The position numbers and the translations under genes are program-made. From a virus (Duplodnaviria > Heunggongvirae > Uroviricota > Caudoviricetes), in the IMG/VR virus record IMGVR_UViG_2675903324_000015, positions 1 through 37,665 of that record: 37,665 nt of DNA. The stretch is one strand, 5' to 3'. Below, piece by piece: positions 1 to 36,731 of the stretch. The notes below the pieces were generated by a model that saw only the letters and a list, made by a program, of their open reading frames with translations, was not told the DNA's origin and made no database searches. Within the stretch, counting starts at the first letter, position 1. Every line of letters begins with the position of its first letter.

Positions 1-1053
1 TTACGGGGTAATGCCAACCGCTGCCGCCACTTTGTCGCCACTTGGCAGCGTTGCCAGAGGATTGAAACGGAGCGCCGTTTCCAGATGATCCGGTGCCAGA
101 TGTGCGTAACGCATCGTCATTTTTATATCGTGGTGTCCGAGAATTTTTTGTAAGGCCAGAATGTTTCCACCCGACATCATGAAGTGCGCCGCAAACGTAT
201 GGCGCAGAACGTGTGTGAGTTGACCGCGAGGGAGCACGATAGACGTTTTTTCCATCACGGATAAAAATTGAAAATAGCAGTCTGTGAAGAAATTGAACCC
301 ATCAAGCGCCATGATCTCTTCGTAAAGCTCTTTACTGATAGGGATGCTTCTGTTTTTCTTCCCTTTCGTTCTGACAAAGGTAATTCGGTATTTAGTCACC
401 TGTGAACGGGTAAGATTTATTGCTTCTCGCCAGCGTGCGCCTGTGCTTAAGCAGATCTTGACTACCAGTGCCAGAATTGGGTCCTGACGTTTGCAATCAG
501 CCAGCAATTCAACAATCTGTTCATGGGTAAGCCATGCCATCTCTTTTTCTGCGATGGTGAATTTTCGCATGTTCTCCAGTGGGTTCGGATACGACCATTC
601 GCCCAGGCGGGATAGTTCGCTAAAAACACTACTTAGATAGCTTTGCTCCAGGTTAACGGTGACCGGGCTTGCTCCTTTCTTCCATTTTTCGCTGAAGTAG
701 ATCTCTCCTGTCAGGCGTTTATCTCTATAGTGGGCAAACATTTTAGAGGTGAGATCGGTTGCAATGGGATTTCCCAGAGCGTCAACCATCAACAGCAATT
801 TGTCATAGACATGCTGCCCAGCCGTCAGAGATTTACCATGTAGTTTGAACCATAGCTCAACCACGTCTTTCAGTGTTCGACGATCCACTGATTCACCCAG
901 CCAGGGTTTTGCTTCGGTTTCTTCCATCGTGTGACGCTCAAAAGCCAGTGCTTCGCCTTTGGTGGCGAATTGTTTACGCACACGACGCCCACTACGTCCG
1001 GCGGGGTAACATTCGCAAAGCCATTTTCCTGTGGTGAGTTTTCGTACTGCCAT
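1..1053 (-). CDS. int: Tyrosine integrase (P2/186-type), 350 aa
   Basis: Full ORF with stop at 1-3; C-terminal region with R...HxxR...Y-type catalytic residues (LRHTFAAH, MRYAHL); position beside the att core and the CI repressor. Confidence 0.9.
   Translation of the reverse strand: MAVRKLTTGKWLCECYPAGRSGRRVRKQFATKGEALAFERHTMEETEAKPWLGESVDRRTLKDVVELWFKLHGKSLTAGQHVYDKLLLMVDALGNPIATDLTSKMFAHYRDKRLTGEIYFSEKWKKGASPVTVNLEQSYLSSVFSELSRLGEWSYPNPLENMRKFTIAEKEMAWLTHEQIVELLADCKRQDPILALVVKICLSTGARWREAINLTRSQVTKYRITFVRTKGKKNRSIPISKELYEEIMALDGFNFFTDCYFQFLSVMEKTSIVLPRGQLTHVLRHTFAAHFMMSGGNILALQKILGHHDIKMTMRYAHLAPDHLETALRFNPLATLPSGDKVAAAVGITP
20..40. repeat. attL core: 21-bp direct repeat GCTGCCGCCACTTTGTCGCCA, inside the 3' end of int
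   Basis: 20/21 identical to 34812-34832 in the same orientation; flanks differ on both sides; the copies bracket all phage-like genes. Confidence 0.6.
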
Positions 1054-1131
1054 AAAAAATGCCCTCCAATAGAGAGCATTTTTACTGTATGTATAACCAG
1101 TGTCAATGTATGATGCTTGAGGTTACATACA

Positions 1132-1503
1132 TCATAAGTACCGATATGATTGCGGGGCCGTTATGTTATCACCTAATGAACTTAGATGAAGCGGTTGATC
1201 ATAGATTTTTAAATTGCCAATTTCTATAGCAAAGGCTTTTTCTTTGCTATGAAAATATGAGTCAAAAAATTGTTTGCTGATACCTGCGTATTGGCTTGTT
1301 TTTTCCCATACAATACTTGGCTTGTCTTCTATAACGTCTGCAATGTCAAATTCAGCAACAACTTTACCGACAGGCATTGTTGAATAAATAACCACAGATT
1401 TTACATCCGGGTTTTTGAAAAGACCTTTCCTGAATTCAAACTTCTTTGTCCCATTAAGGATCTTTTCAACAAATTCAGGTTTTATTGACAATAATACTTT
1501 CAT
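1132..1503 (-). CDS. Small ASCH/PUA-like fold protein (123 aa), function unknown
   Basis: AT-rich ORF; N-terminal pattern (LSIKPEFVEKILNGTKKFEFRK) resembles ASCH-domain proteins such as YqfB; 29-nt overlap with the upstream gene suggests an operon. Confidence 0.45.
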   Translation of the reverse strand: MKVLLSIKPEFVEKILNGTKKFEFRKGLFKNPDVKSVVIYSTMPVGKVVAEFDIADVIEDKPSIVWEKTSQYAGISKQFFDSYFHSKEKAFAIEIGNLKIYDQPLHLSSLGDNITAPQSYRYL

Positions 1504-2554
1504 CTACAGCACCAAGTTTAATTATATCGTCAAATTGCTTATCGGTTAATTTAACAACACCCCAACGGTTTTTAGGATTCAAACCAATTTCTTTAATTAG
1601 TTTAGCACGATTTATTCTTTTAGGTAAAGCTAGATTATATGTAAAACTAATAATGTAAGGGTATCTTCTTGTTTGATAAAATTTTTTCAATTCATTTTCA
1701 GAAAATACACTGTATCGTGCACAATATTGTATGAATTCATTTTCATTATGAAAAGAATCAATATATCTAATATCTTCAACTACACATAATGACGTTGCGA
1801 CAGAACGATAGTATGCTCTGTTCTCTTCGTCACTTGTTCTGTAAATAACTAAGATGTCATGTTTTTTTATTTTTTTTACATCATACATTCTACATATATA
1901 TATTTTTCTAATGCTATTAGCATGAGATACATCCGTGATTATATCTGGAGATTCAGTGACGAGTTTTGAATCAGGAAAAAGTTTTGTATGAAATTCAGGG
2001 TGTATTGACAATAGGTATTTATTCTCATTATTTTTATTATTTATATATGGGTAATCAGAAAGTATATCACCCGTGAGGTGATTTCTATTCATCTCTCTTA
2101 CTAAAACATTTTCTATACCATTTGCGGTTTTTTTTGTGCCATGAAGAATGAATCCATAAAGTTTGAATAGTTTTATTAGATATTCATGTTTTTCAAATAC
2201 AGTAACGTAAATATCATTAACTCTTTCTTTTAAAGCATGATCAAATATTTTTTTTAAAAAACGTTGCCCTCGTAATGTTTTTTTTGTATTGAACTTAAAG
2301 GTTCCAATTTTCAAATGTTTATGATTGATAATTGATGGGGTGACATCAGTTATTTTACCGAATTCAATTTTTAAATACATAAAACCATCAATGGTATTAT
2401 CGTCATTATAAAGCACATATGCTTTTTCTTCTGGATTAAGACTTTTTCTGTTGAACCATTCAATAAAACCGTGTTCATAGTCATTCTTTAACGAATCAAA
2501 AAATGTATCGTCAAAATTTACTTGACTGAATGGAATAAGTTTTAAATTTTCCAT
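1475..2554 (-). CDS. Hypothetical protein (359 aa) with N-terminal GNAT-like acetyltransferase fold and uncharacterised C-terminal domain
   Basis: Motif-A-like RGQRFLKKIFDHAL and motif-B-like HEYLIKLFKLYGFI; strongly AT-rich, Asn/Lys/Ile-rich composition unlike the phage core. Confidence 0.45.
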   Translation of the reverse strand: MENLKLIPFSQVNFDDTFFDSLKNDYEHGFIEWFNRKSLNPEEKAYVLYNDDNTIDGFMYLKIEFGKITDVTPSIINHKHLKIGTFKFNTKKTLRGQRFLKKIFDHALKERVNDIYVTVFEKHEYLIKLFKLYGFILHGTKKTANGIENVLVREMNRNHLTGDILSDYPYINNKNNENKYLLSIHPEFHTKLFPDSKLVTESPDIITDVSHANSIRKIYICRMYDVKKIKKHDILVIYRTSDEENRAYYRSVATSLCVVEDIRYIDSFHNENEFIQYCARYSVFSENELKKFYQTRRYPYIISFTYNLALPKRINRAKLIKEIGLNPKNRWGVVKLTDKQFDDIIKLGAVDESIIVNKT

Positions 2555-2581
2555 GTTGCCCCCTGTTTAATTATTGTGAGA

Positions 2582-3646
2582 TTATTTTCTATAGGTCCAA
2601 AGGTGAATAATTATATATATTACAATAGCTAAAATTGCCCCACCGATATAATATGTGCTTGTCGGTATAAATTTAAGAATAAAAGCAAAGGCAGCACCAT
2701 ATATCAAGTACGCAAAAATTTTACTGAATTTGGTTTTCGTGTTTTTAAACTTCACAACAACAGAGAAGTCATTTAGTGTTGTTTCATTATCATTAACAAT
2801 CTTCCAATGGTAAATCATAGGGTCGTGATCACCAAATGAAATACCTTTTTCGAAATATTTTGTCCATGTTTCAGACTCTAATATTCTACATCCTTTATAA
2901 CTTGAGCCAGATGCTGAACATTCATCAACAATATCTCTTATTATAAACAAATGTGTTTTTAAAGGTGTGCAAGCGGCGCTCGCCAGAGTTGTAGCAATTT
3001 CTGAAGGTAGGTTTCTTTGTTCATTGATCCTAAAATCAATAATATCAGAACGCTCAATATTACTTTTGAGAAAGAGATCTTTTGGATAAAATGTTTTTAC
3101 TAAAACACCTATATCTTCATTGTTGAGTTTAACTCGAAATCTTAAATAATGTGGAGCATCCTCTGACGATAGGCAATCTTTTAGCTTGAAAACAATGAAG
3201 GTGCCATTATGTATTTTAGTTACCTTAACCCTACGATCAAGTTCGCCACCACTAAAGGTCAGATTTGTATTAACAACTAAATCACCTTTATTCGCAAGTT
3301 CTAATTTTGAATGTCTGACGTCTACTGTTTTTGTATTAATAAGATATTCATTAAAAACAGCTGTTACGAGATCTCGGCTTGACTCGAGATTTTTACTAAG
3401 ATCAGAAAAAAAACAATTTTCCTTCTCAAATGGTAAAAATATGCATATTGCACCATGATTTGCAATGGTGTCGTCATCAGGTTTTTTAAACGTAATACCA
3501 AAATCTAAATAACAAAATTTATGAGCACTTATATTCCAAAAATTTATGTGTAACTCATTAATAAAATTATTGCGTTCAGGGTTATAGGTCGAACTCGAAT
3601 TGCTCCTATAATCCCTACATCCCCAGATAGCAAAACTTTTTGACAT
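2582..3646 (-). CDS. Hypothetical membrane-anchored protein (354 aa): large N-terminal soluble domain plus two C-terminal transmembrane helices
   Basis: C-terminal hydrophobic segments IFAYLIYGAAFAFILKF and YYIGGAILAIVIYIIIHLW; AT-rich; first gene of the three-gene cassette between cI and int. Confidence 0.5.
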   Translation of the reverse strand: MSKSFAIWGCRDYRSNSSSTYNPERNNFINELHINFWNISAHKFCYLDFGITFKKPDDDTIANHGAICIFLPFEKENCFFSDLSKNLESSRDLVTAVFNEYLINTKTVDVRHSKLELANKGDLVVNTNLTFSGGELDRRVKVTKIHNGTFIVFKLKDCLSSEDAPHYLRFRVKLNNEDIGVLVKTFYPKDLFLKSNIERSDIIDFRINEQRNLPSEIATTLASAACTPLKTHLFIIRDIVDECSASGSSYKGCRILESETWTKYFEKGISFGDHDPMIYHWKIVNDNETTLNDFSVVVKFKNTKTKFSKIFAYLIYGAAFAFILKFIPTSTYYIGGAILAIVIYIIIHLWTYRK

Positions 3647-3674
3647 AAATATTTCCTTATATCATAGTAAATTA

Positions 3675-4328
3675 TTATACATCTGATAATACTTTTCGAT
3701 AGCATCTTGCGATGGGTTTTATATCGTCAAGCATACATTCAAAAAATGTTTGACCACTGCTAACTTTTACTCTCCCAACTGGAATTCTAACCAGATCACG
3801 AGAACTTATTTTTCCTTCTATTTCAACAATCCATTTCCCATCAATAATTTCATCAAATTTCATGTCTACCAGATAATTATCTGATAACTCAGAAAATATT
3901 GCGGGGGTAATCATATCCACCGGGAGCAAATCTTTATCAAAAATGTAAGAGGAATCACCTTGTAGCTTGCCATCTACTATTTTGTAATGTGGCAATTTTA
4001 TACCTTCTTTCGTTGCTTTAAGACGAGGAGAACCAACACCAGACACTAACCATTCGAGAGACACTCCCGTTTCTAGAGCGCACTGAATTACCCAATCAGC
4101 TGGAAAAATATCACGCATATAGCGCGTTGCCATGGTGCTCTTAGAAACACCTAAATGATCACAGAGAGCCTGACGGGTACCGAACCCATATGCTTCAACT
4201 AAACGTTCTATAGCTTTCTTACCGCCGCTATTGAAATCCACAAGTCCTCCAAAGAAATCCAAAACTCGTTGACAGATTCCAAAAGCGATCTTAAAGTTGA
4301 ACCAGAAGTGTTCTTTTGGAGCCTTCAC
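3675..4328 (-). CDS. cI: CI-like immunity repressor (186-type), 217 aa
   Basis: HTH-like segment TRQALCDHLGVSKSTMATRYMR; divergent from apl/cII; same strand as int. Confidence 0.7.
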   Translation of the reverse strand: MKAPKEHFWFNFKIAFGICQRVLDFFGGLVDFNSGGKKAIERLVEAYGFGTRQALCDHLGVSKSTMATRYMRDIFPADWVIQCALETGVSLEWLVSGVGSPRLKATKEGIKLPHYKIVDGKLQGDSSYIFDKDLLPVDMITPAIFSELSDNYLVDMKFDEIIDGKWIVEIEGKISSRDLVRIPVGRVKVSSGQTFFECMLDDIKPIARCYRKVLSDV

Positions 4329-4386
4329 TACTAATCACGACAAACAACGGCTCGCCACAAGCCATATCTAGAAGGAATATTGCCTT

Positions 4387-4590
4387 ATGACACCTAACAT
4401 TTCAATTACTCTGAATACACCACATGTCACAATCGAACGTTATAGCGAACTGACTGGCCTTGCTATTGATACGATTAACGACATGTTGGCTGATGGCCGA
4501 CTACCTCGTCATCGTCTTCGTAAAGACAAAAAACGTGAAAAGGTAATGATTAACCAGGCTGCTCTGACTGTTGATGCTTTGTCTGTTTAA
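4387..4590 (+). CDS. apl: Apl/Cox-like excisionase and switch regulator (67 aa)
   Basis: Small basic ORF, first gene of the rightward early operon, divergent from cI. Confidence 0.55.
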
Positions 4591-4645
4591 TAGACGTCTA
4601 TTTTCGCAATAAGACGCTGAGTTCGATTTTGCGATAAGTTCGGAG

Positions 4646-5164
4646 TTGAAAACCATGTTTGATTACCAAGTTTCCAAACATCCACATTTTGATGAAGCCT
4701 GTCGTGCATTTGCACTGCGCCACAATCTGGTGCAACTGGCAGAACGTGCAGGCATGAATGTGCAGATTCTGCGGAACAAGCTGAACCCAGCTCAGCCTCA
4801 TTTATTAACCGCACCAGAAATCTGGCTGCTTACCGATCTGACTGAAGATTCAACGCTGGTAGATGGTTTTCTGGCACAGATTCATTGTCTGCCATGTGTA
4901 CCGATTAATGAGGTGGCAAAAGAGAAACTGCCACATTACGTCATGAGTGCAACCGCAGAGATCGGGCGTGTTGCTGCAGGTGCGGTGTCTGGCGATGTAA
5001 AAACCTGTGCCGGTCGTCGTGATGCTATCAGCAGCATTAACTCTGTAACACGACTGATGGCGCTGGCGGCTGTTTCATTGCAGGCCCGTTTACAGGCTAA
5101 TCCTGCGATGGCGAGTGCAGTTGATACCGTGACTGGCCTCGGTGCTTCATTCGGTTTGCTGTGA
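4646..5164 (+). CDS. cII: CII-like lysogeny establishment activator (186 CII family), 172 aa
   Basis: Translation closely matches my recollection of phage 186 CII ([19 protein letters not shown]...AGMNVQ.LRNKLNP...[27 protein letters not shown]). Confidence 0.8.
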
Positions 5165-5171
5165 GGTGCTT

Positions 5172-5372
5172 ATGCTGACGAAAGAACCATCATTTGCATC
5201 GCTGCTGGTAAAACAAAGTCCGGCAATGCACTACGGTCACGGCTGGATCATGGGTGAGGATGGTAAACGCTGGCATCCGTGCCGTTCACAAGATGAATTG
5301 CTGGCAGAACTATCAACGAAAAAACGGGGGAACCAATGGCTATTGAAGGCGCTGCGGCGACTGTTCCATTAA
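5172..5372 (+). CDS. Hypothetical early protein (66 aa), at the position of 186 fil
   Basis: ORF with GAGGTG RBS before ATG at 5172; position in the early operon. Confidence 0.4.
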   Translation: MLTKEPSFASLLVKQSPAMHYGHGWIMGEDGKRWHPCRSQDELLAELSTKKRGNQWLLKALRRLFH

Positions 5373-5677
5373 GCCCCGGTGAACGCCTGAATGGACTTAA
5401 TCATATTGCGGAATTAAGAGCGAAAGTTTTTGGCCTGAATATTGAGTCAGAGCTTGAGCGGTTTATTAAAGATATGCGTGATCCACGGGATATCAATAAT
5501 GAACAAAATAAACGGGCACTGGCTGCCATATTCTTTATGGCAAAAATTCCAGCTGAACGTCATAGCATCAGCATTAATGAGCTGACCACTGACGAAAAGC
5601 GGGAGCTGATTAAAGCAATGAATCATTTTCGTGCAGTGGTGAGCTTATTTCCCAGACGGCTAACCATGCCGAATTAA
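5336..5677 (+). CDS. Hypothetical early protein (113 aa), at the position of 186 dhr
   Basis: ORF in the early operon; no recognisable motif. Confidence 0.4.
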   Translation: MAIEGAAATVPLSPGERLNGLNHIAELRAKVFGLNIESELERFIKDMRDPRDINNEQNKRALAAIFFMAKIPAERHSISINELTTDEKRELIKAMNHFRAVVSLFPRRLTMPN

Positions 5678-5744
5678 CCAACTAATGAAATTCATGGCGT
5701 AAACCCGCCAGGCATCCCTTTATCTAAATTCAGGAGAATTGATT

Positions 5745-5978
5745 ATGCGTAATATTGAAACCCTCACGACTAAAACCGGACCGGATGATGCAGGGCTTAA
5801 TATTTTACTGACAGAGGCTCGTCTGGAAGAACGCCGGGCAAGGGCTGAAGCAATGGCAGCTCGCCTTGATAGCCTGGCGTGTCATATCACATCCCGCCAG
5901 CTAAACCACGTCGAAGCGGCAGAACTGCTGCGTGTGACTGCTGAAGCAATCCAGAACGAAGCGCAGGAGATCCACTGA
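5745..5978 (+). CDS. Hypothetical early protein (77 aa)
   Basis: CAGGAG RBS 8 nt upstream of ATG at 5745; stop overlaps the next start. Confidence 0.45.
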   Translation: MRNIETLTTKTGPDDAGLNILLTEARLEERRARAEAMAARLDSLACHITSRQLNHVEAAELLRVTAEAIQNEAQEIH

Positions 5979-6205
5979 TGGCTGATGCAATGGATCTCGT
6001 ACAGCAGCGCGTTGAAGAAGAACGCCAGCGTCATATCCGTGCTGCCCGCGCCAAAACGCCGGGCGTATCCCGCGTGCTTTGCATTGAGTGTGAAGCACCA
6101 ATTCCGCCAGCACGACGTCGCGCCATTCCGGGTGTGCAGCTTTGCATTACCTGTCAGGAAATCGCAGAGCTGAAAGGCAAACATTACAACGGAGGTGCTG
6201 TATGA
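5978..6205 (+). CDS. TraR/DksA-family C4 zinc-finger protein (75 aa)
   Basis: CxxC...CxxC pattern (CIECEAPIP...CITCQE). Confidence 0.6.
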   Translation: MADAMDLVQQRVEEERQRHIRAARAKTPGVSRVLCIECEAPIPPARRRAIPGVQLCITCQEIAELKGKHYNGGAV

Positions 6206-7050
6206 GCACCATCCTGAAATGGGCGGGTAATAAAACCGCCATTATGCCAGAACTGAAAAAATACCTTCCTGCTGGCCCGCGACTGGTTGAACCTTTCGCG
6301 GGTTCTTGTGCTGTGATGATAGAGACGGATTACCCCAGCTATCTTGTTGCGGATATTAATCCTGATTTAATCAACTTCTATAAAAAGGTTGCTGCTGATT
6401 GCGAGGCGTTTATATCTCGTGCCAGAGCTTTATTTGAGGAAGCAAACAGGGAGGTGGCTTATTACAACATAAGGCAGGAGTTTAATTACTCCACTGAAAT
6501 TACTGATTTCATGAAAGCGGTATATTTCCTGTATCTCAATCGTCATGGTTACCGTGGGTTATGTCGCTATAACAAGAGCGGGCATTTCAACATTCCCTAC
6601 GGGAATTATAAAAATCCGTATTTCCCTGAAAAAGAAATTCGCAAATTTGCAGAAAAAGCCCAGCGAGCAACGTTTATCTGCGCCAGCTTTGATGAAACGC
6701 TGGCGATGTTGAAGGCGGGGGATGTGGTGTATTGCGATCCGCCTTATGACGGTACGTTTTCCGGCTATCACACTGATGGCTTCACTGAGGATGACCAGTA
6801 TCACCTGGCATCCGTTCTTGAACATCGATCATCTGAAGGTCATCCGGTCATTGTTTCTAACAGTGACACATCCCTGATTCGTTCGCTGTATCGCAATTTC
6901 ACTCACCACTACATCAAGGCAAAACGCAGCATTGGCGTGTCAGCTGGCGAGAGTAAATCTGCAACAGAAATCATTGCCACCAAATCAGCTGGGGGGTTTG
7001 GTGTCGATTTTGCCAGCGGCTCTGACCGTACCGTTGAGGTACGCGCATGA
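6202..7050 (+). CDS. DNA N6-adenine methyltransferase (Dam-like), 282 aa
   Basis: Motif I FAGSCAV and motif IV DPPY ([10 protein letters not shown]); GGAGG RBS before ATG at 6202. Confidence 0.85.
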
Positions 7051-8057
7051 ATGCTATCGATCCGCGTTGCTTTGCCTCAGGCACCATTAACGTCATCAAT
7101 ACTTCTGGTGGCAAAGATAGTCTCGCTCAATGGCTAAGAGCCATTGAAAACGATGTTCCGCATATTTCTGTATTTGCCGATACGGGTCATGAACATCCAC
7201 AGACAATAGAATATCTGGATTATCTGGAATCAAAGCTGGGCAAGATTATTCGCGTCAAAGCGGATTTCACACGCCAGATAGAAGGGAAACGTAAATTCAT
7301 TGCGGAAAAGTGGCCCATTTCTCTCGTTGAGGAATGTGGTATGTCGACAGATGAGGCTGAGGAACGTATTTACCGGGCACTGGAAATCCTTAAACCAACC
7401 GGCGTTCCGTTTCTTGATTTGTGCATGTGGAAAGGTCGCTTCCCTTCAACAAAAGCTCGTTTCTGCACTTTTGAACTGAAACATGAACCAATACGTACAC
7501 AGGTAATCGATCCAGCTCTGGATGAATACGATGAGGTAATCAGCTGGCAAGGAGTCCGGGGGCAGGAATCACCGGAACGTGCATTGTTGCCTGAGTGGGA
7601 GGACGATGCAGACAATACTCTGGGGCTGCATGTTTATCGTCCGATCCTTAATTGGCTGCATGAGGATGTGTTTGCTATTGCCAAACGTCATGGCATTAAG
7701 CCTAACCCCCTTTATATGCAGGGATGCAGTCGTGTCGGTTGTATGCCATGCATTCATGCTCGCAAGTCAGAACTTGGAGAGATTTTCCAACGCTGGCCAG
7801 AAGAAATCCGCCGAGTGGCTGAGTGGGAAAGACTGGTTGCGGAATGTTCAAGACGTGGCAATTCAACGTTCTTTCCATCCACGCATGATCCGCGCCGTGC
7901 TGAAAAACGGATCGAAGTCATAACTGTTGATGCTTATGGCATTGAAACTTATCGGGACTGGGCCTTAACGACTCGGGGCGGTATGCAGTTTGACCTGCTG
8001 GCAGGCATGAATGATAAAGCGGTGTGCAGCAGTGTATATGCAGGAGTCTGTGAGTGA
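7047..8057 (+). CDS. PAPS-reductase / ATP-pyrophosphatase-like protein (336 aa)
   Basis: N-terminal PP-loop motif SGGKDS; Cys-rich C-terminal region ([10 protein letters not shown]); start overlaps the Dam stop. Confidence 0.65.
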
Positions 8058-10495
8058 CAGAGATCAGCACAGGCCGTCTTGCCGCTCCATTTGTCAGTGT
8101 AACTTCCGGTAGCATTGAGAATTCTGCCGGGGGTTATTCGTGGAATTTACCTAAGAAAGCCATTAACCCTTATCTGGACCCGGCGGAAGTTGCGCCGGTT
8201 TCTGCGCTTTCAAACCTGATCACTCTGTACGCTACCGATAACGAGCAGGAACAACTGCGCCGCGAGGCACTGAGTGATCAGGTCTGGGAGCGTTATTTCT
8301 TTAATGAATCCCGTGATCCTGTCCAGCGCGAAATGGAGCAGGATAAGCTCATTAGCCGGGCAAAGTTGGCGCATGAGCAGCAGCGTTTTAACCCGGACAT
8401 GGTCATTCTGGCAGACGTCAGCGCCCAGCCCTCCCATATCAGCAAGCCGCTGATGCAACGTATTGAATACTTCAGCAGCCTGGGCAGGCCAAAGGCTTAT
8501 TCCCGCTATTTACGTGAGACGATTAAGCCATGTCTGGAACGACTGGAGCATGTACGCGACAGTCAGCTATCCACTTCTTTTCGCTTTATGGCAAGCCATG
8601 AAGGGCTGGACGGCCTGCTAATCCTGCCTGAAATGAGTCAGGATCAGGTGAAACGCCTGTCCACCCTGGTAGCTGCGCATATGAGCATGTGCCTTGATGC
8701 AGCTTGTGGCGATTTGTATGCCACCGATGATGTTAAGCCAGAAGAAATCCGCAAGACATGGGAAAAGGTGGCAGCAGAAACCCTGCGTCTGGATGTCATC
8801 CCGCCTGCGTTTGAGCAACTCCGTAGGAAAAGAAAGCGCCGTAAACCAGTGCCCTATGAACTCATTCCGGGTTCGCTGGCGCGTATGCTGTGCGCCGACT
8901 GGTGGTATCGGAAATTGTGGAAGATGCGTTGCGAATGGCGGGAAGAGCAGTTGCGTGCTGTCTGCCTGGTCAGCAAAAAAGCATCTCCCTATGTCAGCTA
9001 TGAAGCCGTGATGCATAAACGTGAGCAGCGCCGTAAGTCGCTGGAGTTTTTCCGTTCTCATGAACTGGTGAACGAAGACGGCGACACGCTGGATATGGAA
9101 GATGTGGTAAACGCCAGTAGTAGCAACCCGGCGCATCGCCGCAATGAGATGATGGCATGTGTTAAAGGTCTGGAGCTTATCGCGGAAATGCGCGGTGACT
9201 GCGCCGTTTTCTACACCATCACCTGTCCGTCACGTTTCCATTCCACGCTAAATAACGGCAGGCCCAACCCGACCTGGACAAATGCGACGGTAAGACAAAG
9301 CAGTGATTATCTGGTCGGCATGTTTGCTGCATTTCGTAAGGCGATGCACAAAGCCGGATTGCGCTGGTATGGCGTGCGGGTGGCTGAGCCGCATCATGAC
9401 GGTACAGTTCACTGGCACCTGTTGTGTTTTATGCGCAAAAAAGATCGCCGCGCCATTACTGCTTTGTTGCGTAAGTTTGCCATTCGTGAAGACCGCGAGG
9501 AGCTGGGTAATAACACAGGACCACGCTTTAAGTCTGAGTTGATTAACCCGCGCAAAGGTACGCCAACAAGCTACATCGCGAAATACATCAGTAAGAACAT
9601 TGACGGGCGTGGTCTGGCTGGCGAGATCAGCAAGGAAACGGGTAAATCCCTGCGTGATAACGCTGAATACGTTAATGCCTGGGCGTCTCTGCATCGTGTT
9701 CAGCAATTCCGCTTCTTTGGTATTCCAGGGCGTCAGGCTTACCGTGAACTGCGGTTGTTGGCTGGTCAGGCGGCAAGGCAGCAGGGTGACAAAAAAGCAG
9801 GTGCGCCGGTACTGGATAACCCGCGCCTTGATGCAATCCTGGCTGCTGCTGATGCTGGCTGTTTTGCCACCTACATTATGAGGCAGGGCGGCGTGCTGGT
9901 TCCTCGCAAATATCACTTGATCAGAACCGCTTATGAAATCAATGAAGAGCCGACCGCCTATGGCGATCACGGTATTCGTATTTATGGCATCTGGTCACCC
10001 ATTGCAGAGGGCAAGATCTGCACTCATGCAGTGAAGTGGAAAATGGTTCGTAAAGCCGTTGACGTTCAGGAGGCGGCAGCCGACCAGGGCGCTTGCGCCC
10101 CTTGGACTCGTGGCAATAACTGTCCCCTTGCTGAAAATTTGAACCAACAAGGGAAAGACAAATCAGCTGATGGGGATACTAGGACGGACATTACCCGCAT
10201 GGATGACAAGGAGTTGCACGATTACCTGCACAGTATGAGCAAAAAAGAGCGCCGGGAACTGGCTGCAAGGTTACGCCTGGTGAAACCGAAACGGCGTAAA
10301 GACTACAAACAGCGAATTACAGACCATCAGCGACAGCAGCTCGTCTATGAACTGAAGTCCAGAGGATTTAATGGCAGCGAGAAAGAGGTCGATTTACTCC
10401 TTCGCGGCGGCAGTATTCCGTCAGGAGCAGGCCTGCGTATCTTCTATCGGAACCAGCGTTTGCAGGAAGATGATAAGTGGCGAAACCTGTATTAA
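8054..10495 (+). CDS. A: Replication initiation protein A (rolling-circle nicking endonuclease, P2 gpA family), 813 aa
   Basis: HUH-type motif VHWHLLCF and nearby YIAKYISK tyrosine motif; size and position; GTG start. Confidence 0.85.
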
Positions 10496-12157: not shown

Positions 12158-12733
12158 ATGCTTTTACCCGTAAGTGTTACATCGTGTGGCTTGTATCACC
12201 CCTACTGGCATTTGGGAGAGCGCAACCCTCATAGCGATGAACTATCAAGGCAGATGATGGATTTTAAGGATGAAAATAATCGTAATCATCAAAGGGCTAT
12301 TAACCGTTTTTCTCGATTAGCTATAGATAAGGTTGGGCGGTTAGTAATCAGAGGTGGCGGTGGGCGTTTTGTTGAGTCTCCTTTTTCGATAGCAGTCGTC
12401 CCGTCTCACACTGAAGGCAGAATTTCACCGGCTTTGATTGAGGTCGCCGAGCGAATCGTAAATGTTCACCGTCGGGGCATTGTTGATTGCTGTTTGGAAA
12501 GAACACGCACTGTTCCTAGCGCACATCGTGAAGGAGGCGATCGCTCAATTACTGGTCACATGTCTAGTATCAGAGTTAGGGGTGGTAACCTCATGGGGCG
12601 AAATGTGTTACTACTAGATGATGTTAAAACAACAGGCGGTAGTTTGTCTGCGTGTTTTTATTTACTGGAGTCTGCAGGAGCTGGAGTTATAATGCCATTA
12701 GCTCTGCTAGAAACTGCAAACTATGAGGAGTAG
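12158..12733 (+). CDS. Phosphoribosyltransferase (PRTase, ComF-like) domain protein; true start may be internal
   Basis: Canonical PRPP-binding motif VLLLDDVKTTGGSL near the C-terminus. Confidence 0.75.
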   Translation: MLLPVSVTSCGLYHPYWHLGERNPHSDELSRQMMDFKDENNRNHQRAINRFSRLAIDKVGRLVIRGGGGRFVESPFSIAVVPSHTEGRISPALIEVAERIVNVHRRGIVDCCLERTRTVPSAHREGGDRSITGHMSSIRVRGGNLMGRNVLLLDDVKTTGGSLSACFYLLESAGAGVIMPLALLETANYEE

Positions 12734-13697
12734 CAAAGTGCACTCAGAAGAATTAAAAAATACACTTGGATTAGCTATTCAAATCGGGAAGCTAGCATCT
12801 GATCAAAGTGTATTGAAATTCTTTGAGCTTATTGATTTTGATGTTATTCGTGATATACGCGACTTAACTGAGATGGTTAATAGCCACGGGTTTCTAAAAG
12901 ATAAAATATCTGAGACTGATTTTCTAATAGCGAACGCTGAATTGGAGAACCACCATGTTAATGGTGTGGAGCTAATACCATATGGGTCTGAATTCTATCC
13001 TCTTAGTTTAGCGTTTACTCCTAATCCACCATCAATTCTCTACATAAAAGGGGATAAAAGTATACTAAAAGAATTGCCGGGTGTCGCAATTGTAGGATCC
13101 CGTGATACTTCCCCTGCAGGGGAAGAAATAACGAGGCGAATCACTAATCAGATAGTGTCTGCTGGGTATATTGTTGTAAGTGGGTTAGCAATAGGCACTG
13201 ATGCGAATGCTCATAAGGCAACGTTACAAGCAAAAGGAAAAACCATTGCTGTCTTGGCGCATGGTCTTGAGGAGGCTAAGCCGAAGCAAAACAGTCGACT
13301 TGCTCAAGAGATTCTGGATAAAGGTGGTGCATGGATTTCTGAGTATCCTATGGGTCGACCGGCCCAGAAACAATCATTTGTACAAAGAAATCGGATACAA
13401 GTTGGATTATCTGCAGGTTCAATTTTAATCGAGGCTGCGTTAAATAGCGGAACGATAACTCAAGCTGAGTTTGCAAATAAGGCGAAAAGACCAGTGTTTG
13501 CGGTTGTACCTCACCTACCTAATAATCCGCTTAATCTTAATTGTGAGGGAACAGTTGATTTAGTTAAGAGCAACATGGCTAGAGCGTTAAAAACAAAACG
13601 GGATTATGATGATGTGATTATGATCATAAATGAGTCTCGGGAGTATTTGTTAGAGCTAAAATGGCCAGGGAAACAGAGTACATTAGACTTGATTTAA
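12723..13697 (+). CDS. DprA/Smf-like (SLOG Rossmann-fold) protein, 324 aa; alternative GTG start at 12738
   Basis: DprA-type signature GVAIVGSRDTSP...GLAIGTDANAH...KTIAVLAHGLE...ISEYPMG...QRNRIQVGLS...PVFAV; overlaps the PRTase gene. Confidence 0.75.
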   Translation: MRSSKVHSEELKNTLGLAIQIGKLASDQSVLKFFELIDFDVIRDIRDLTEMVNSHGFLKDKISETDFLIANAELENHHVNGVELIPYGSEFYPLSLAFTPNPPSILYIKGDKSILKELPGVAIVGSRDTSPAGEEITRRITNQIVSAGYIVVSGLAIGTDANAHKATLQAKGKTIAVLAHGLEEAKPKQNSRLAQEILDKGGAWISEYPMGRPAQKQSFVQRNRIQVGLSAGSILIEAALNSGTITQAEFANKAKRPVFAVVPHLPNNPLNLNCEGTVDLVKSNMARALKTKRDYDDVIMIINESREYLLELKWPGKQSTLDLI

Positions 13698-35045: not shown

Positions 35046-36731
35046 TTATCCTAATCCTGGCCATACCATGACGATGATTGTCCCTGCCAGCGTCAGCAGG
35101 ACGTTGGCGATTGCGTAGGTGCCCGCATAGCCCAGCGCAGGGATGTTACTGCGAGCTGTATCACTGATGATCTCCATTGCCGGCGCGCAGGTGCGTGCGC
35201 CCATCATTGCGCCGAACAACAGTGCGCGGTTCATTCGCAATACATAAGCACCGAACAAGAAACAGATAACCACGGGCACAAGACTGACAATTAATCCGGC
35301 AATCAACATCTGACCGCCAATCGCGCCCAGGCCGTTATTAATACCGCTACCGGCGCTCAGACCAACGCCTGCCATAAACACCATCAAGCCGAACTCTTTC
35401 ACCATGCTTAATGCACCTTGCGGAATGTAACCGAAGGTCGGGTGGTTAGCACGCATAAAGCCCAGCATAATTCCGGCGAATAACAACCCGGCAGCGTTCC
35501 CCATGCCGAAACTGAATGTGCTGAACTGGAAGGTGATCATCCCGATCATCAGCCCAATAACAAAGAAGGCGCAAAATGCCAGCAGGTCAGTGACCTGGCT
35601 GTGAATCGAGATAAAGCCGATGCGATCGGCGATGGTTTTTACGCGACGGGCATCACCGCTGACTTGTAAAACGTCACCTTTGTTAAGCACGACGTTGTCA
35701 TCTATCGGCATCTCAATCTGGCTACGAATGACGCGGTTAAGGAAGCAACCGTGATCGGTCAACTTCAGTTGTGCGAGACGTTTACCTACAGCGTTATGGT
35801 TTTTAACGACCACTTCTTCAGTGACGATACGCATGTCGAGAAGGTCACGATCGAAAACTTCTTTACCGTTACGGAAGCTGGGATCGAGTCGGGCATGGGC
35901 GTCGGGATAGCCTACCAACGCTATTTCATCGCCCATTTGTAGCACGGCATCACCGTCTGGATTTGCCAGAATCCCGTTACGTCGAATACGTTCAATGTAG
36001 CAGCCGGTTTGTCGATAAATACCCAGTTCACGCAGATTTTTGCCGTCGGTCCAGGCCACCAGCTCCGGGCCGACGCGATAGGCGCGGATCACCGGTAAAT
36101 AAACCTTACGGTTGGCATCAGTGTCCAGGCCACGTTCGCGGGCGATTTGCTGGGCGCTGGTCTGTAAGTCCTGATGCTGCAATTTCGGCAAGTAACGCGC
36201 ACCAACAATCAAACTCACCAGACCGATTAAATAGGTTAAGGCATATCCGAGGCTCAGATTATCCAGTGCCAGTGAGAGCTGCCTGCTTTCCATACCGGAA
36301 TGACGCAGTGTATCGCCAGCACCGACCAGAACCGGTGTCGACGTCATAGAGCCTGCTAACATACCGGCCGTCAGGCCAATATCCCAGCCAAACAGCTTAC
36401 CTAACCCTAAGGCGATCACCAGCGCACTGCCAACCATCACCAGTGCTAACATTAGGTAATTTTTCCCATCGCGAAAAAAAATGGAAAAAAAGTTCGGTCC
36501 GGCTTCGACCCCGACGCAGAAAATAAACAGCATAAAGCCAAGATTAAGCGCATCGGTGTTAATGCTGAAATGTTGTTGGCCTAATAACAGCGATACGACT
36601 AAAACGCCAATGGAATTACCCAGTTGGATCGAACCAAGTCGTAACTTTCCGAGACATAGCCCAAGCGCGAGGACCACAAATAATAACAGAATGTAATTCC
36701 CATTTAACAATTCGGCGACGTTTATATTCAC
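35046..36731 (-). CDS. ybjL: Putative transport protein YbjL (host gene), 561 aa
   Basis: Multi-pass membrane protein with central soluble domains; recognised as E. coli YbjL. Confidence 0.75.

What the first reader, a model, noticed from the sequence alone, without database searches (positions are those of the whole stretch)
1132..3646. AT-rich three-gene cassette between int and cI: candidate uncharacterised accessory or defence operon
Three co-directional, overlapping or tightly spaced genes with composition very different from the phage core sit where 186/P2-type phages normally have cI next to int. They share the strand of cI and int, so they would be co-transcribed from the lysogenic promoter and expressed in the lysogen, as expected for a superinfection-exclusion or abortive-infection module. 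The products are a membrane-anchored protein with two C-terminal TM helices, a GNAT-like protein with an unknown C-terminal domain, and an ASCH/PUA-like protein. I do not recognise this combination as a named system.
Basis: partly seen in the sequence, partly recalled or inferred. Interest (0 to 1): 0.8.

Follow-up and report, generated by a model that had tools for sequence, protein, structure and literature searches.

The report
Three-gene GNAT-EVE/ASCH prophage cassette
An E. coli prophage carries, between its repressor and integrase genes, a candidate anti-phage toxin-antitoxin pair that is already catalogued but untested (an acetyltransferase fused to a modified-base reader, plus an ASCH protein), together with a membrane protein from a large unnamed family that I found next to such acetyltransferase/ASCH genes wherever enough flanking DNA was available.

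Summary
Three tightly packed, AT-rich minus-strand genes lie between cI and int of a 186/P2-like E. coli prophage, and all three are under purifying selection.

The claim that this is not a named system is only partly right. Genes 2 and 3 are PADLOC candidate system PDC-M11 (A: E 1e-133; B: E 2e-49). This is the GNAT-EVE + ASCH operon described by Iyer 2013 and Bell/Koonin 2020. One GenBank phage record (PV340567) annotates homologues (56% and 63% identical) as "GevT toxin / GevA antitoxin". I found no experimental paper.

The new result concerns gene 1. This 354-aa cytoplasmic beta-sandwich protein with a C-terminal TM hairpin hits no Pfam, PADLOC, PHROG, NCBIfam or PDB model. A profile search nevertheless finds about 1000 representative relatives. 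In every one of about 37 sampled loci with enough flank, the relative sits beside a GNAT and/or a PDC-M11B-type ASCH gene, usually with a 4-nt overlap. Gene 1 is therefore a real third component. It is dispensable: most GNAT-EVE/ASCH pairs lack it, and other genes occupy the same slot in sister prophages.

Most likely function: a lysogen-expressed, toxin-antitoxin-like abortive-infection module. This is inferred, not shown.

Verdict: new variant of a known but uncharacterised kind, of moderate interest.

The parts
2582..3646 (-). g1: 354-aa membrane-anchored protein. It has a cytoplasmic all-beta domain (about residues 1-300) and a C-terminal TM hairpin. It belongs to a large unannotated family that is linked to GNAT/ASCH genes.
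2594..2728 (-). g1 C-terminal TM hairpin (residues about 307-351). It is preceded by a Lys-rich stretch and ends in YRK, so the predicted topology is N-in/C-in.
   Evidence: AF2 helices H307-325 and H331-351. Hydrophobic segments are conserved across homologues although their sequence is not.
1475..2554 (-). g2: GNAT-EVE fusion (PDC-M11A / GevT-like), 359 aa.
   Evidence: PADLOC PDLC04419 9.6e-134. PHROG 6345 7.7e-152. 56% identical to GevT of phage PhiR47_2. AF2 pLDDT 86.6.
2075..2554 (-). g2 N-terminal GNAT acetyltransferase domain (residues about 1-160).
1478..2062 (-). g2 C-terminal PUA-like (EVE-type) domain (residues about 165-359).
   Evidence: Pfam EVE below threshold (E 0.11; best E 0.016 in 3 of 15 homologues). 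hhalign to the ASCH alignment gives E 3e-4 over the first strand-helix. Bell et al. 2020 class this prophage family as GNAT-EVE.
1132..1503 (-). g3: ASCH protein (PDC-M11B / GevA-like), 123 aa. Its start overlaps the end of g2 by 29 nt.
   Evidence: PADLOC PDLC04425 2.2e-49. Pfam ASCH 2.1e-6. ZmASCH 5GUS 7.6e-9, with the GxKxxExR motif aligned (G18-R25). 63% identical to GevA.
3675..4328 (-). cI repressor, directly upstream on the same strand. Its promoter is the presumed source of cassette transcription.
   Evidence: Pfam Phage_CI_repr + Phage_CI_C. 28-nt gap to g1 with no terminator.
1..1053 (-). Integrase, directly downstream on the same strand.
   Evidence: Pfam Int_N 1.7e-32 and Phage_integrase 7.2e-22.
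1450..1500 (.). Recombination breakpoint at the g2/g3 junction, seen against the ExPEC XM-type prophage.
   Evidence: int+g3 are 98-100% identical, g2 is 58-79% identical, and the upstream gene is unrelated.

Best explanation
The cassette is a horizontally acquired accessory operon in the cI-int hotspot of a 186/P2-like prophage. It is a three-gene variant of the GNAT-EVE/ASCH module known as PADLOC candidate PDC-M11 and annotated 'GevT/GevA' in GenBank. SHOWN: g2 is a GNAT acetyltransferase fused to a second domain, and g3 is its ASCH partner. The two were adjacent in all 80 phage loci sampled. g1 is a membrane-anchored protein with a cytoplasmic domain. Its family of about 1000 representatives was found next to GNAT and/or ASCH genes in every sampled locus with enough flank, across unrelated genomic contexts. 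INFERRED (likely mechanism): in the lysogen the three genes are read through from the cI promoter. The GNAT-EVE protein is a latent toxin/effector. It uses acetyl-CoA to acetylate a nucleic-acid-linked target, most plausibly charged tRNA or another RNA or modified base held by its PUA-like domain. The ASCH protein keeps it in check as an antitoxin, by binding it, by competing for the RNA, or by reversing the mark. Infection by another phage upsets this balance and translation stops, which is abortive infection. g1 tethers the system to the inner membrane and acts as an optional sensor/regulator or a second, membrane-directed effector. It depends on the GNAT, because it is never seen without one. 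The GNAT-EVE/ASCH pair works without it.
Against: No experiment or paper available here shows toxicity, antitoxin activity or phage defence for any member. PDC-M11 is only a candidate, and 'GevT/GevA' is an annotation in one GenBank record. The acetylation target is unknown. The GNAT is not close to the tRNA-acetylating toxins AtaT/TacT, which do not appear among PDB hits at E<=1. The EVE assignment of the g2 C-terminal domain is below threshold in my tests. The role of g1 is not defined: its fold matches only generic beta-sandwiches. Very similar g2 proteins sit beside different upstream genes, and most pairs have no third gene, so g1 is not needed by the core. Promoter-like sites are no more frequent than chance, so an internal promoter can be neither called nor excluded.
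Confidence: 0.6

Rival explanations
1. g1 is an independent single-gene cargo, for example a superinfection-exclusion or abortive-infection membrane protein. It merely shares the cI-int hotspot with a self-contained two-gene GNAT-EVE/ASCH module.
For: In lambdoid and other prophages the pair stands alone directly after the repressor (48 of 80 loci). In P2-like prophages the same slot holds unrelated genes: a 260-aa HEPN/DUF3644-like protein, an 8xMP membrane protein, a 2-TM 315-aa protein, a BRCT-like protein and a 431-aa TM protein. Near-identical g2 proteins have different upstream genes. PADLOC defines PDC-M11 with two genes only.
Against: g1-family genes were found next to GNAT and/or ASCH in every informative locus, at 21-29% identity, in non-phage contexts, with stand-alone GNATs, in different gene orders, and usually translationally coupled. 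An unrelated passenger would not keep such a neighbour over that divergence.
Confidence: 0.12
2. The module is mainly a prophage addiction or maintenance toxin-antitoxin system, or another lysogenic-conversion function. It stabilises the prophage or changes host physiology and does not defend against other phages.
For: A GenBank record labels the homologues toxin and antitoxin. Bell et al. class the operons as TA-like. The position beside int and attL suits a stabilising role. No defence data exist.
Against: The pair also occupies the gpA-gpQ hotspot in SopEPhi, and the long form is reported near RM and CRISPR loci. PADLOC lists it as a phage defence candidate. The cI-int interval is a documented anti-phage hotspot. 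Many TA systems do both jobs, so this rival overlaps the main model.
Confidence: 0.18
3. The module serves the phage as counter-defence. GNAT-EVE would acetylate modified bases in DNA or RNA to evade host restriction, as Iyer 2013 and Bell 2020 speculated.
For: Bell et al. raise this possibility for the prophage GNAT-EVE proteins, and say Iyer et al. proposed acetylation of a DNA base. An EVE-type reader would direct the enzyme to modified nucleic acid.
Against: The genes sit in the lysogenic (cI-int) transcription unit, not among early lytic genes. A membrane-anchored partner and a 'toxin/antitoxin' annotation fit poorly with DNA protection. The same prophage carries its own Dam-type methylase elsewhere.
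Confidence: 0.08

Closest known systems
PADLOC candidate system PDC-M11 (PDC-M11A + PDC-M11B)
   Same: g2 and g3 match the A and B models over their full length (9.6e-134 and 2.2e-49) and are adjacent and overlapping.
   Different: PDC-M11 has two genes and is only a candidate. g1 matches no PADLOC model, although its family accompanies PDC-M11-type genes in many genomes.
(PIN)-GNAT-EVE + ASCH operons (Iyer et al. 2013; Bell, Wolf & Koonin 2020, PMC7641849), annotated 'GevT toxin / GevA antitoxin' in Escherichia phage PhiR47_2 (PV340567.1)
   Same: The architecture is the same: GNAT fused to a PUA-like domain, followed by a small ASCH gene, in a gamma-proteobacterial prophage directly downstream of the repressor. 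Identity to GevT is 56% and to GevA 63%.
   Different: Those descriptions list ASCH, PIN and AAA_17 as partners but no membrane protein. PhiR47_2 has no third gene. The window has the short form, without PIN.
GNAT-type type II toxin-antitoxin systems (AtaT-AtaR, TacT-TacA, KacT-KacA, ItaT-ItaR), from my own knowledge and Yeo 2018 as cited
   Same: A GNAT enzyme is the predicted toxin and is paired with a small neutralising protein. The likely outcome is a block on translation through acetylation.
   Different: Those toxins are single-domain proteins of about 170-180 aa with an upstream RHH/HTH antitoxin. Here the GNAT carries an extra reader domain, the partner is a downstream ASCH protein, and the upstream gene encodes a 354-aa membrane protein. 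None of those toxins appears among PDB sequence hits at E<=1.
ZmASCH (PDB 5GUS/5GUQ), reported as an ssRNA-specific ribonuclease; and E. coli YqfB, an ASCH-fold N4-acetylcytidine amidohydrolase (YqfB from my own knowledge, not tested here)
   Same: g3 aligns with ZmASCH over residues 3-119 (E 7.6e-9) and shares the GxKxxExR motif. Both precedents show that ASCH proteins act on RNA or on acetylated cytosine, which suits an antidote to an acetyltransferase.
   Different: Similarity to ZmASCH is low and no activity is shown for g3. No YqfB match appeared in any search.
Defence hotspots of P2-like phages: cI-int in Vibrio K139-like phages (Rousset 2022) and integrase-primase in P2-like prophages (NAR 2026, PMC13586616)
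   Same: The position (between repressor and integrase) and the behaviour (different cargo in sister prophages) are the same.
   Different: In the passages I searched, those papers do not mention this cassette or GNAT/ASCH genes (zero occurrences of GNAT, ASCH or acetyltransferase).

Membership tests
PADLOC PDC-M11 | A protein matching a PDC-M11A model | tested here: met
   g2: PDLC04419 E 9.6e-134, residues 3-357 against profile 11-357/357.
PADLOC PDC-M11 | A protein matching a PDC-M11B model, encoded next to A | tested here: met
   g3: PDLC04425 E 2.2e-49. g2 and g3 overlap by 29 nt.
PADLOC PDC-M11 | Demonstrated anti-phage activity | not testable with these tools
   This is a candidate system. 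The only paper mentioning it just lists it in a genome survey.
GNAT-EVE + ASCH operon (GevT/GevA) | N-terminal GNAT acetyltransferase fold with an acetyl-CoA loop | tested here: met
GNAT-EVE + ASCH operon (GevT/GevA) | C-terminal EVE (PUA-like) domain | tested here: inconclusive
   Pfam EVE E 0.11 (12.9 bits against a cutoff of 23), in register 38-144/145; best E 0.016 in 3 of 15 homologues. A PDB profile search gave nothing. hhalign to ASCH gave E 3e-4 over 29 columns. The AF2 domain is a mixed beta-barrel with helices. The published classification says EVE.
GNAT-EVE + ASCH operon (GevT/GevA) | Adjacent small ASCH-domain gene | tested here: met
   Pfam ASCH 28.8 bits, above the gathering score of 21.2. 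5GUS E 7.6e-9. 63% identical to the annotated GevA.
GNAT-EVE + ASCH operon (GevT/GevA) | Toxin neutralised by antitoxin | not testable with these tools
   The only basis is the GenBank product names. No paper was found.
GNAT-type type II TA (AtaT/TacT/KacT/ItaT) | Single-domain GNAT toxin with an upstream RHH/HTH antitoxin | tested here: not met
   g2 has two domains and 359 aa. The upstream gene encodes a 354-aa TM protein with no DNA-binding hit, and the partner ASCH gene is downstream.
GNAT-type type II TA (AtaT/TacT/KacT/ItaT) | Sequence relationship to tRNA-acetylating toxins | tested here: not met
   The PDB profile search at E<=1 returns only PAI1, a Lactobacillus GNAT and spermidine acetyltransferases.
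g1 family (unnamed; proposed third component) | Conserved motifs (ELHxNxW, DFG, AxFNE, YxRFR, DFRxNExR, RxLExxxWxxY, YHWK) followed by one or more C-terminal TM helices | tested here: met
   The window protein carries all 17 invariant positions of alignment A5. The profile finds 1020 representatives.
g1 family (unnamed; proposed third component) | Encoded next to a GNAT and/or PDC-M11B-type ASCH gene | tested here: met
   Window: g1 is 27 nt upstream of g2. Elsewhere: all of about 37 informative loci.
Known superinfection-exclusion or Abi membrane proteins (for g1) | Sequence or fold similarity to a described family | tested here: not met
   No PHROG, PADLOC, Pfam or NCBIfam hit. No tblastn hit in 50,697 phage records. 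BFVD gave nothing at E<=1e-3. PDB gave only generic beta-sandwich matches.
186/P2 core gene set | Conserved across the phage lineage | tested here: not met
   The int/cI-cII flanks occur in more than 1300 E. coli genomes, g2-like genes in 310 and g1 in 7.

The most novel reading that the evidence does not exclude
The g1 family, with about 1000 representative sequences and no annotation, is the missing membrane arm of a widespread acetylation-based immune or toxin system. Its invariant Arg/His/Asp-rich cytoplasmic pocket would bind the product or substrate of the partner GNAT (an acetylated nucleotide or RNA, or acetyl-CoA), or would itself be acetylated. The TM hairpin would then convert this signal into membrane damage, or relay a membrane event such as phage DNA entry to the GNAT. 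That would be a new kind of signal coupling between a GNAT enzyme and a membrane effector or sensor. The swappable gene upstream of GNAT-EVE (g1, the HEPN-like protein, 8xMP, other TM proteins) would be a set of interchangeable effectors, as in CBASS or Thoeris.
Probability: 0.2. Interest if true: 0.8.

Novelty: new variant of a known kind. Interest (0 to 1): 0.55.

Why it matters
GNAT-EVE/ASCH modules are common. g2-like genes occur in 310 of 5426 complete E. coli genomes, and a profile search of 5.8 billion proteins finds about 2000 relatives. In the literature I could search, nobody has shown what they acetylate or whether they defend.

This locus adds two things. First, it is a clean natural setting, inside the lysogenic cI-int transcription unit of an E. 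coli prophage, with sister prophages that carry the pair with a different third gene. Second, it reveals a third, membrane-anchored component whose large family is missing from Pfam, PADLOC and PHROGs yet is tightly linked to GNAT/ASCH genes.

If the link is functional, current two-gene definitions of the system are incomplete for that subset. A nucleic-acid acetylation pathway would also be tied to the membrane. The system is small, sits in a model host and is easy to test.

Tried and rejected
- **Wider locus fishing for the g1 family.** Alignments A5 and A6 were too diverse for the search for related loci. Only subfamily A7 could be scanned.
- **Literature.** 'PDC-M11' appears only in a strain survey. 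'GNAT-EVE' appears only in Bell et al.. 'GevT' + 'antitoxin' gave nothing, and a looser Gev search returned only noise. Iyer 2013 is not held. Two papers that matched on 'ASCH' were false hits on the author name Aschtgen.
- **Promoter scan.** Promoter-like sites are no more frequent than in shuffled sequence (21 against 17.6 +/- 4), so I made no promoter call.
- **Co-evolution of g2 with its upstream gene.** The g2 tree interleaves loci with g1, the HEPN-like gene and the 2-TM gene, so it gives no support for co-divergence.
- **g1 in sequenced phages.** There was no tblastn or megablast match in the INPHARED collection.
Full report
**1. What is there**

The window starts inside a 186/P2-like prophage of E. 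coli. It is 99.9% identical to strain C2 (NZ_CP010117), where the prophage lies next to rcdA/ybjJ. On the minus strand the order is cI (3675-4328), g1 (2582-3646, 354 aa), g2 (1475-2554, 359 aa), g3 (1132-1503, 123 aa) and int (1-1053).

The gaps are 28 nt, 27 nt, an overlap of 29 nt, and 78 nt. Each gene has a Shine-Dalgarno-like sequence. No terminator-like hairpin falls in a minus-strand intergenic gap.

GC is 0.32, 0.28 and 0.34 for g1, g2 and g3, against 0.50 for the window. Against the 95%-identical copy in E. coli A30, dN/dS is 0.11, 0.10 and 0.04.

**2. Genes 2 and 3 are a catalogued but uncharacterised pair**

- g2 matches PADLOC PDC-M11A (9.6e-134) and g3 matches PDC-M11B (2.2e-49). 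Both also match PHROGs of unknown function.
- A profile of 33 homologues hits the GNAT PAI1 (1TIQ, E 1.8e-5). The invariant R95-G96-x-R98 aligns with that protein's acetyl-CoA loop.
- The C-terminal half gives only sub-threshold EVE hits: Pfam E 0.11, and best E 0.016 in 3 of 15 homologues. It also shows a short but specific hhalign match of its first strand-helix to the ASCH alignment, E 3e-4.
- g3 is an ASCH protein: Pfam 2.1e-6, above the gathering score. It aligns with ZmASCH (5GUS, E 7.6e-9), including the GxKxxExR motif.

This is the architecture that Bell, Wolf and Koonin (2020, PMC7641849), following Iyer et al. 2013, call GNAT-EVE + ASCH. [quoted passage not shown]

One GenBank record, Escherichia phage PhiR47_2 (PV340567.1), annotates homologues as 'GevT toxin' and 'GevA antitoxin'. 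They are 56% and 63% identical to g2 and g3 and lie directly after cI. I found no paper behind those names. The only paper mentioning PDC-M11 merely lists it in a strain survey.

**3. How the pair is distributed**

A profile scan of IMG/VR returned 80 loci, and g2 and g3 homologues are adjacent or overlapping in all 80.

In 48 loci the pair directly follows a repressor gene: an S24-type cI in 27 and a short HTH repressor in 21. In P2/186-like prophages one extra gene lies between cI and g2. That extra gene varies:

| Gene between cI and g2 | Loci |
|---|---|
| g1 family | 9 viral loci, plus Raoultella, Scandinavium and Brenneria genomes |
| 260-aa protein with an ERNKVIH motif and a weak DUF3644 hit | 9 loci |
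| 8xMP membrane protein (PF24838, 2e-25) | 7 loci |
| Single cases: a 2-TM protein, a BRCT-like protein, a 431-aa TM protein | 1 locus each |

- The g2 tree interleaves these types.
- The window and the ExPEC XM prophage are 98-100% identical across int+g3. Identity then drops to 58-79% within g2, and the next gene is unrelated. The recombination breakpoint therefore sits at the g2/g3 junction.
- In Salmonella phage SopEPhi the pair (orf12/orf13) occupies the other P2 hotspot, between gpA and gpQ.
- g2-like DNA is present in 310 of 5426 complete E. coli genomes, and g1 in 7.

The cassette is therefore mobile cargo in a hotspot, consistent with the published hotspots.

**4. Gene 1 is the new part**

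g1 hits nothing in Pfam, PADLOC, PHROGs or NCBIfam. It also hits nothing in 50,697 phage records, in PDB sequences or in BFVD.

The word-indexed search found only 25 relatives, nearly all of them Enterobacterales. All contexts I checked were cI-g1-g2-g3-int. That alone could reflect shared ancestry of the prophages.

The exhaustive profile search changed the picture. It found 1020 representatives at E<=1e-3 and 769 at E<=1e-10. I sampled their genomic contexts:

- P0025 and P0147 (25% identity): g1-like, then a 501-aa PDC-M11A long form (PDLC04422, 2e-99), then a PDC-M11B ASCH. Starts and stops overlap by 4 nt. The loci sit next to polysaccharide genes or IS66, not in a P2 prophage.
- P0148, P0187 and P0176: g1-like, then a stand-alone GNAT of 150-200 aa. 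L103 also has AAA_17 and ASCH.
- P0158: ASCH, AAA_17, g1-like, GNAT.
- P0295: ASCH, g1-like, GNAT.
- A metagenome scan with one subfamily gave 34 further loci.

I scored these loci with HMMs built here. Every locus with about 500 nt or more of flank, roughly 37 of the 43, has a GNAT(-EVE) and/or a PDC-M11B-type ASCH gene beside the g1-like gene. Of these, 21 show the order g1, GNAT-EVE, ASCH. One shows GNAT-EVE, ASCH, g1.

In Photobacterium swingsii a g1-like/GNAT/ASCH trio lies convergent to a cI/HEPN-like/GNAT-EVE unit.

Across 17 members at 21-63% identity, 17 positions are invariant: H33, N35, G50, P72, F98, N99, Y167, R169, R171, D204, R206, N208, R211, R254, E257, W261 and Y264. This points to a defined binding or catalytic site.

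I conclude that g1 is a real, previously unlisted partner of the GNAT/ASCH module. The dependence runs one way: g1 is never seen without a GNAT or ASCH neighbour, while most GNAT-EVE/ASCH pairs lack g1.

**5. How it most likely works**

Shown:
- the identities of the three proteins;
- their linkage;
- the accessory, hotspot nature of the cassette;
- the operon-like layout.

Inferred:
- The genes are transcribed with cI and int in the lysogen. In coliphage 186 the lysogenic transcript covers cI and int; this rests on my own knowledge and was not tested here.
- GNAT-EVE is a latent toxin/effector that acetylates an RNA-linked target. The precedents are the tRNA-acetylating GNAT toxins, and the reader domain would supply specificity.
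- ASCH is the antidote. The precedents are ZmASCH, which acts on ssRNA, and YqfB, which removes N4-acetyl from cytidine (my knowledge).
- Infection releases the toxin, and the cell aborts the infection.
- g1 either senses a membrane event or acts as a second, membrane-directed effector.

I put about 0.85 on the identity and linkage claims, about 0.4-0.5 on the TA-like defence mechanism, and about 0.6 overall.

Rivals:
- g1 as an unrelated passenger (0.12). The linkage data contradict this.
- A prophage-addiction or conversion role rather than defence (0.18). This overlaps the main model.
- A counter-defence role through nucleic-acid acetylation (0.08). This fits poorly with the lysogenic position of the genes.

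**6. Comparison and novelty**

The locus meets the PADLOC PDC-M11 definition and the GNAT + adjacent-ASCH features of the GNAT-EVE/ASCH operon. The EVE assignment remains inconclusive in my own tests.

It is not a member of the classical GNAT type II TA families. It has two domains, no upstream RHH antitoxin and no sequence link to them. It may still work in a similar way.

The three-gene form with the g1-family membrane protein is not in the PADLOC definition (two genes). It is also absent from the passages of Bell et al. that I searched.

Verdict: a new variant of a known but uncharacterised kind. Interest is moderate at 0.55. It is, however, an untested and widespread module with a newly linked third component, in an easily handled host.

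Noticed in passing
window 12158-13697 (+): The same prophage carries a ShosT/ShosA (Shosta) defence pair in the gpA-gpQ hotspot. PADLOC gives ShosT 3.6e-14 and ShosA 2.8e-70, and Pfam gives DNA_processg_A 1.4e-60. It resembles in size and position orf14/orf15 of SopEPhi.
   Followed up: partly
window 7047-8057 (+): A gene with a PAPS-reductase domain (Pfam 1.2e-33) lies between the Dam-like methylase ORF (6142-7050) and the gpA replication gene (8054-10495). RefSeq marks the methylase and replication genes of strain C2 as frameshifted, so the prophage may be defective.
   Followed up: no
L002:4054-4836 (-) and loci L021-L030: In many E. coli and other enterobacterial prophages the g1 slot holds an unrelated 260-aa protein. 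It has an ERNKVIH (Rx4H, HEPN-like) motif and a weak PADLOC DUF3644 hit (2.4e-5). Its homologues share contigs with g2 homologues in Hafnia, Serratia, Pectobacterium and Photobacterium.
   Followed up: partly
L035-L038, L043, L044, L051 (about 4400-4990): Another occupant of the same slot is an 8xMP 'octameric membrane protein' (PF24838, 2.1e-25). Single loci carry a 2-TM 315-aa protein (L031), a BRCT-like protein with a PDC-S48 hit (L032) and a 431-aa TM protein (L046). These may be interchangeable effectors or independent cargo.
   Followed up: partly
L142 (Photobacterium swingsii) 4388-9129: The order is cI, HEPN-like (268 aa), GNAT-EVE (354 aa) on one strand. Convergent to it are g1-family (405 aa), GNAT (185 aa) and ASCH (132 aa). 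There are two acetyltransferase modules but only one ASCH gene between them.
   Followed up: partly
window about 1450-1500, against L002: There is a sharp recombination breakpoint at the g2/g3 junction. int+g3 are 98-100% identical to the ExPEC XM prophage, while g2 is 58-79% identical and the next gene is unrelated.
   Followed up: yes
L100:1155-1709, L103:359-901: Small AAA_17 P-loop proteins accompany some g1-like/GNAT/ASCH loci, as Bell et al. reported for PIN-GNAT-EVE operons. The L100 protein also gives a weak PADLOC VakA hit (5.7e-5).
   Followed up: no
E. coli EC0880B records (hits H21-H24): In this strain lineage an IS4-family element is annotated within the stretch that matches window 1-5200 (the int to cII region).
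   Followed up: no
window 35046-36731 (-): This is a host permease gene (Asp-Al_Ex 7.2e-84, TrkA_C) beyond the far end of the prophage. Together with rcdA/ybjJ to the left of int in strain C2, it places the prophage between rcdA and this gene.
   Followed up: no
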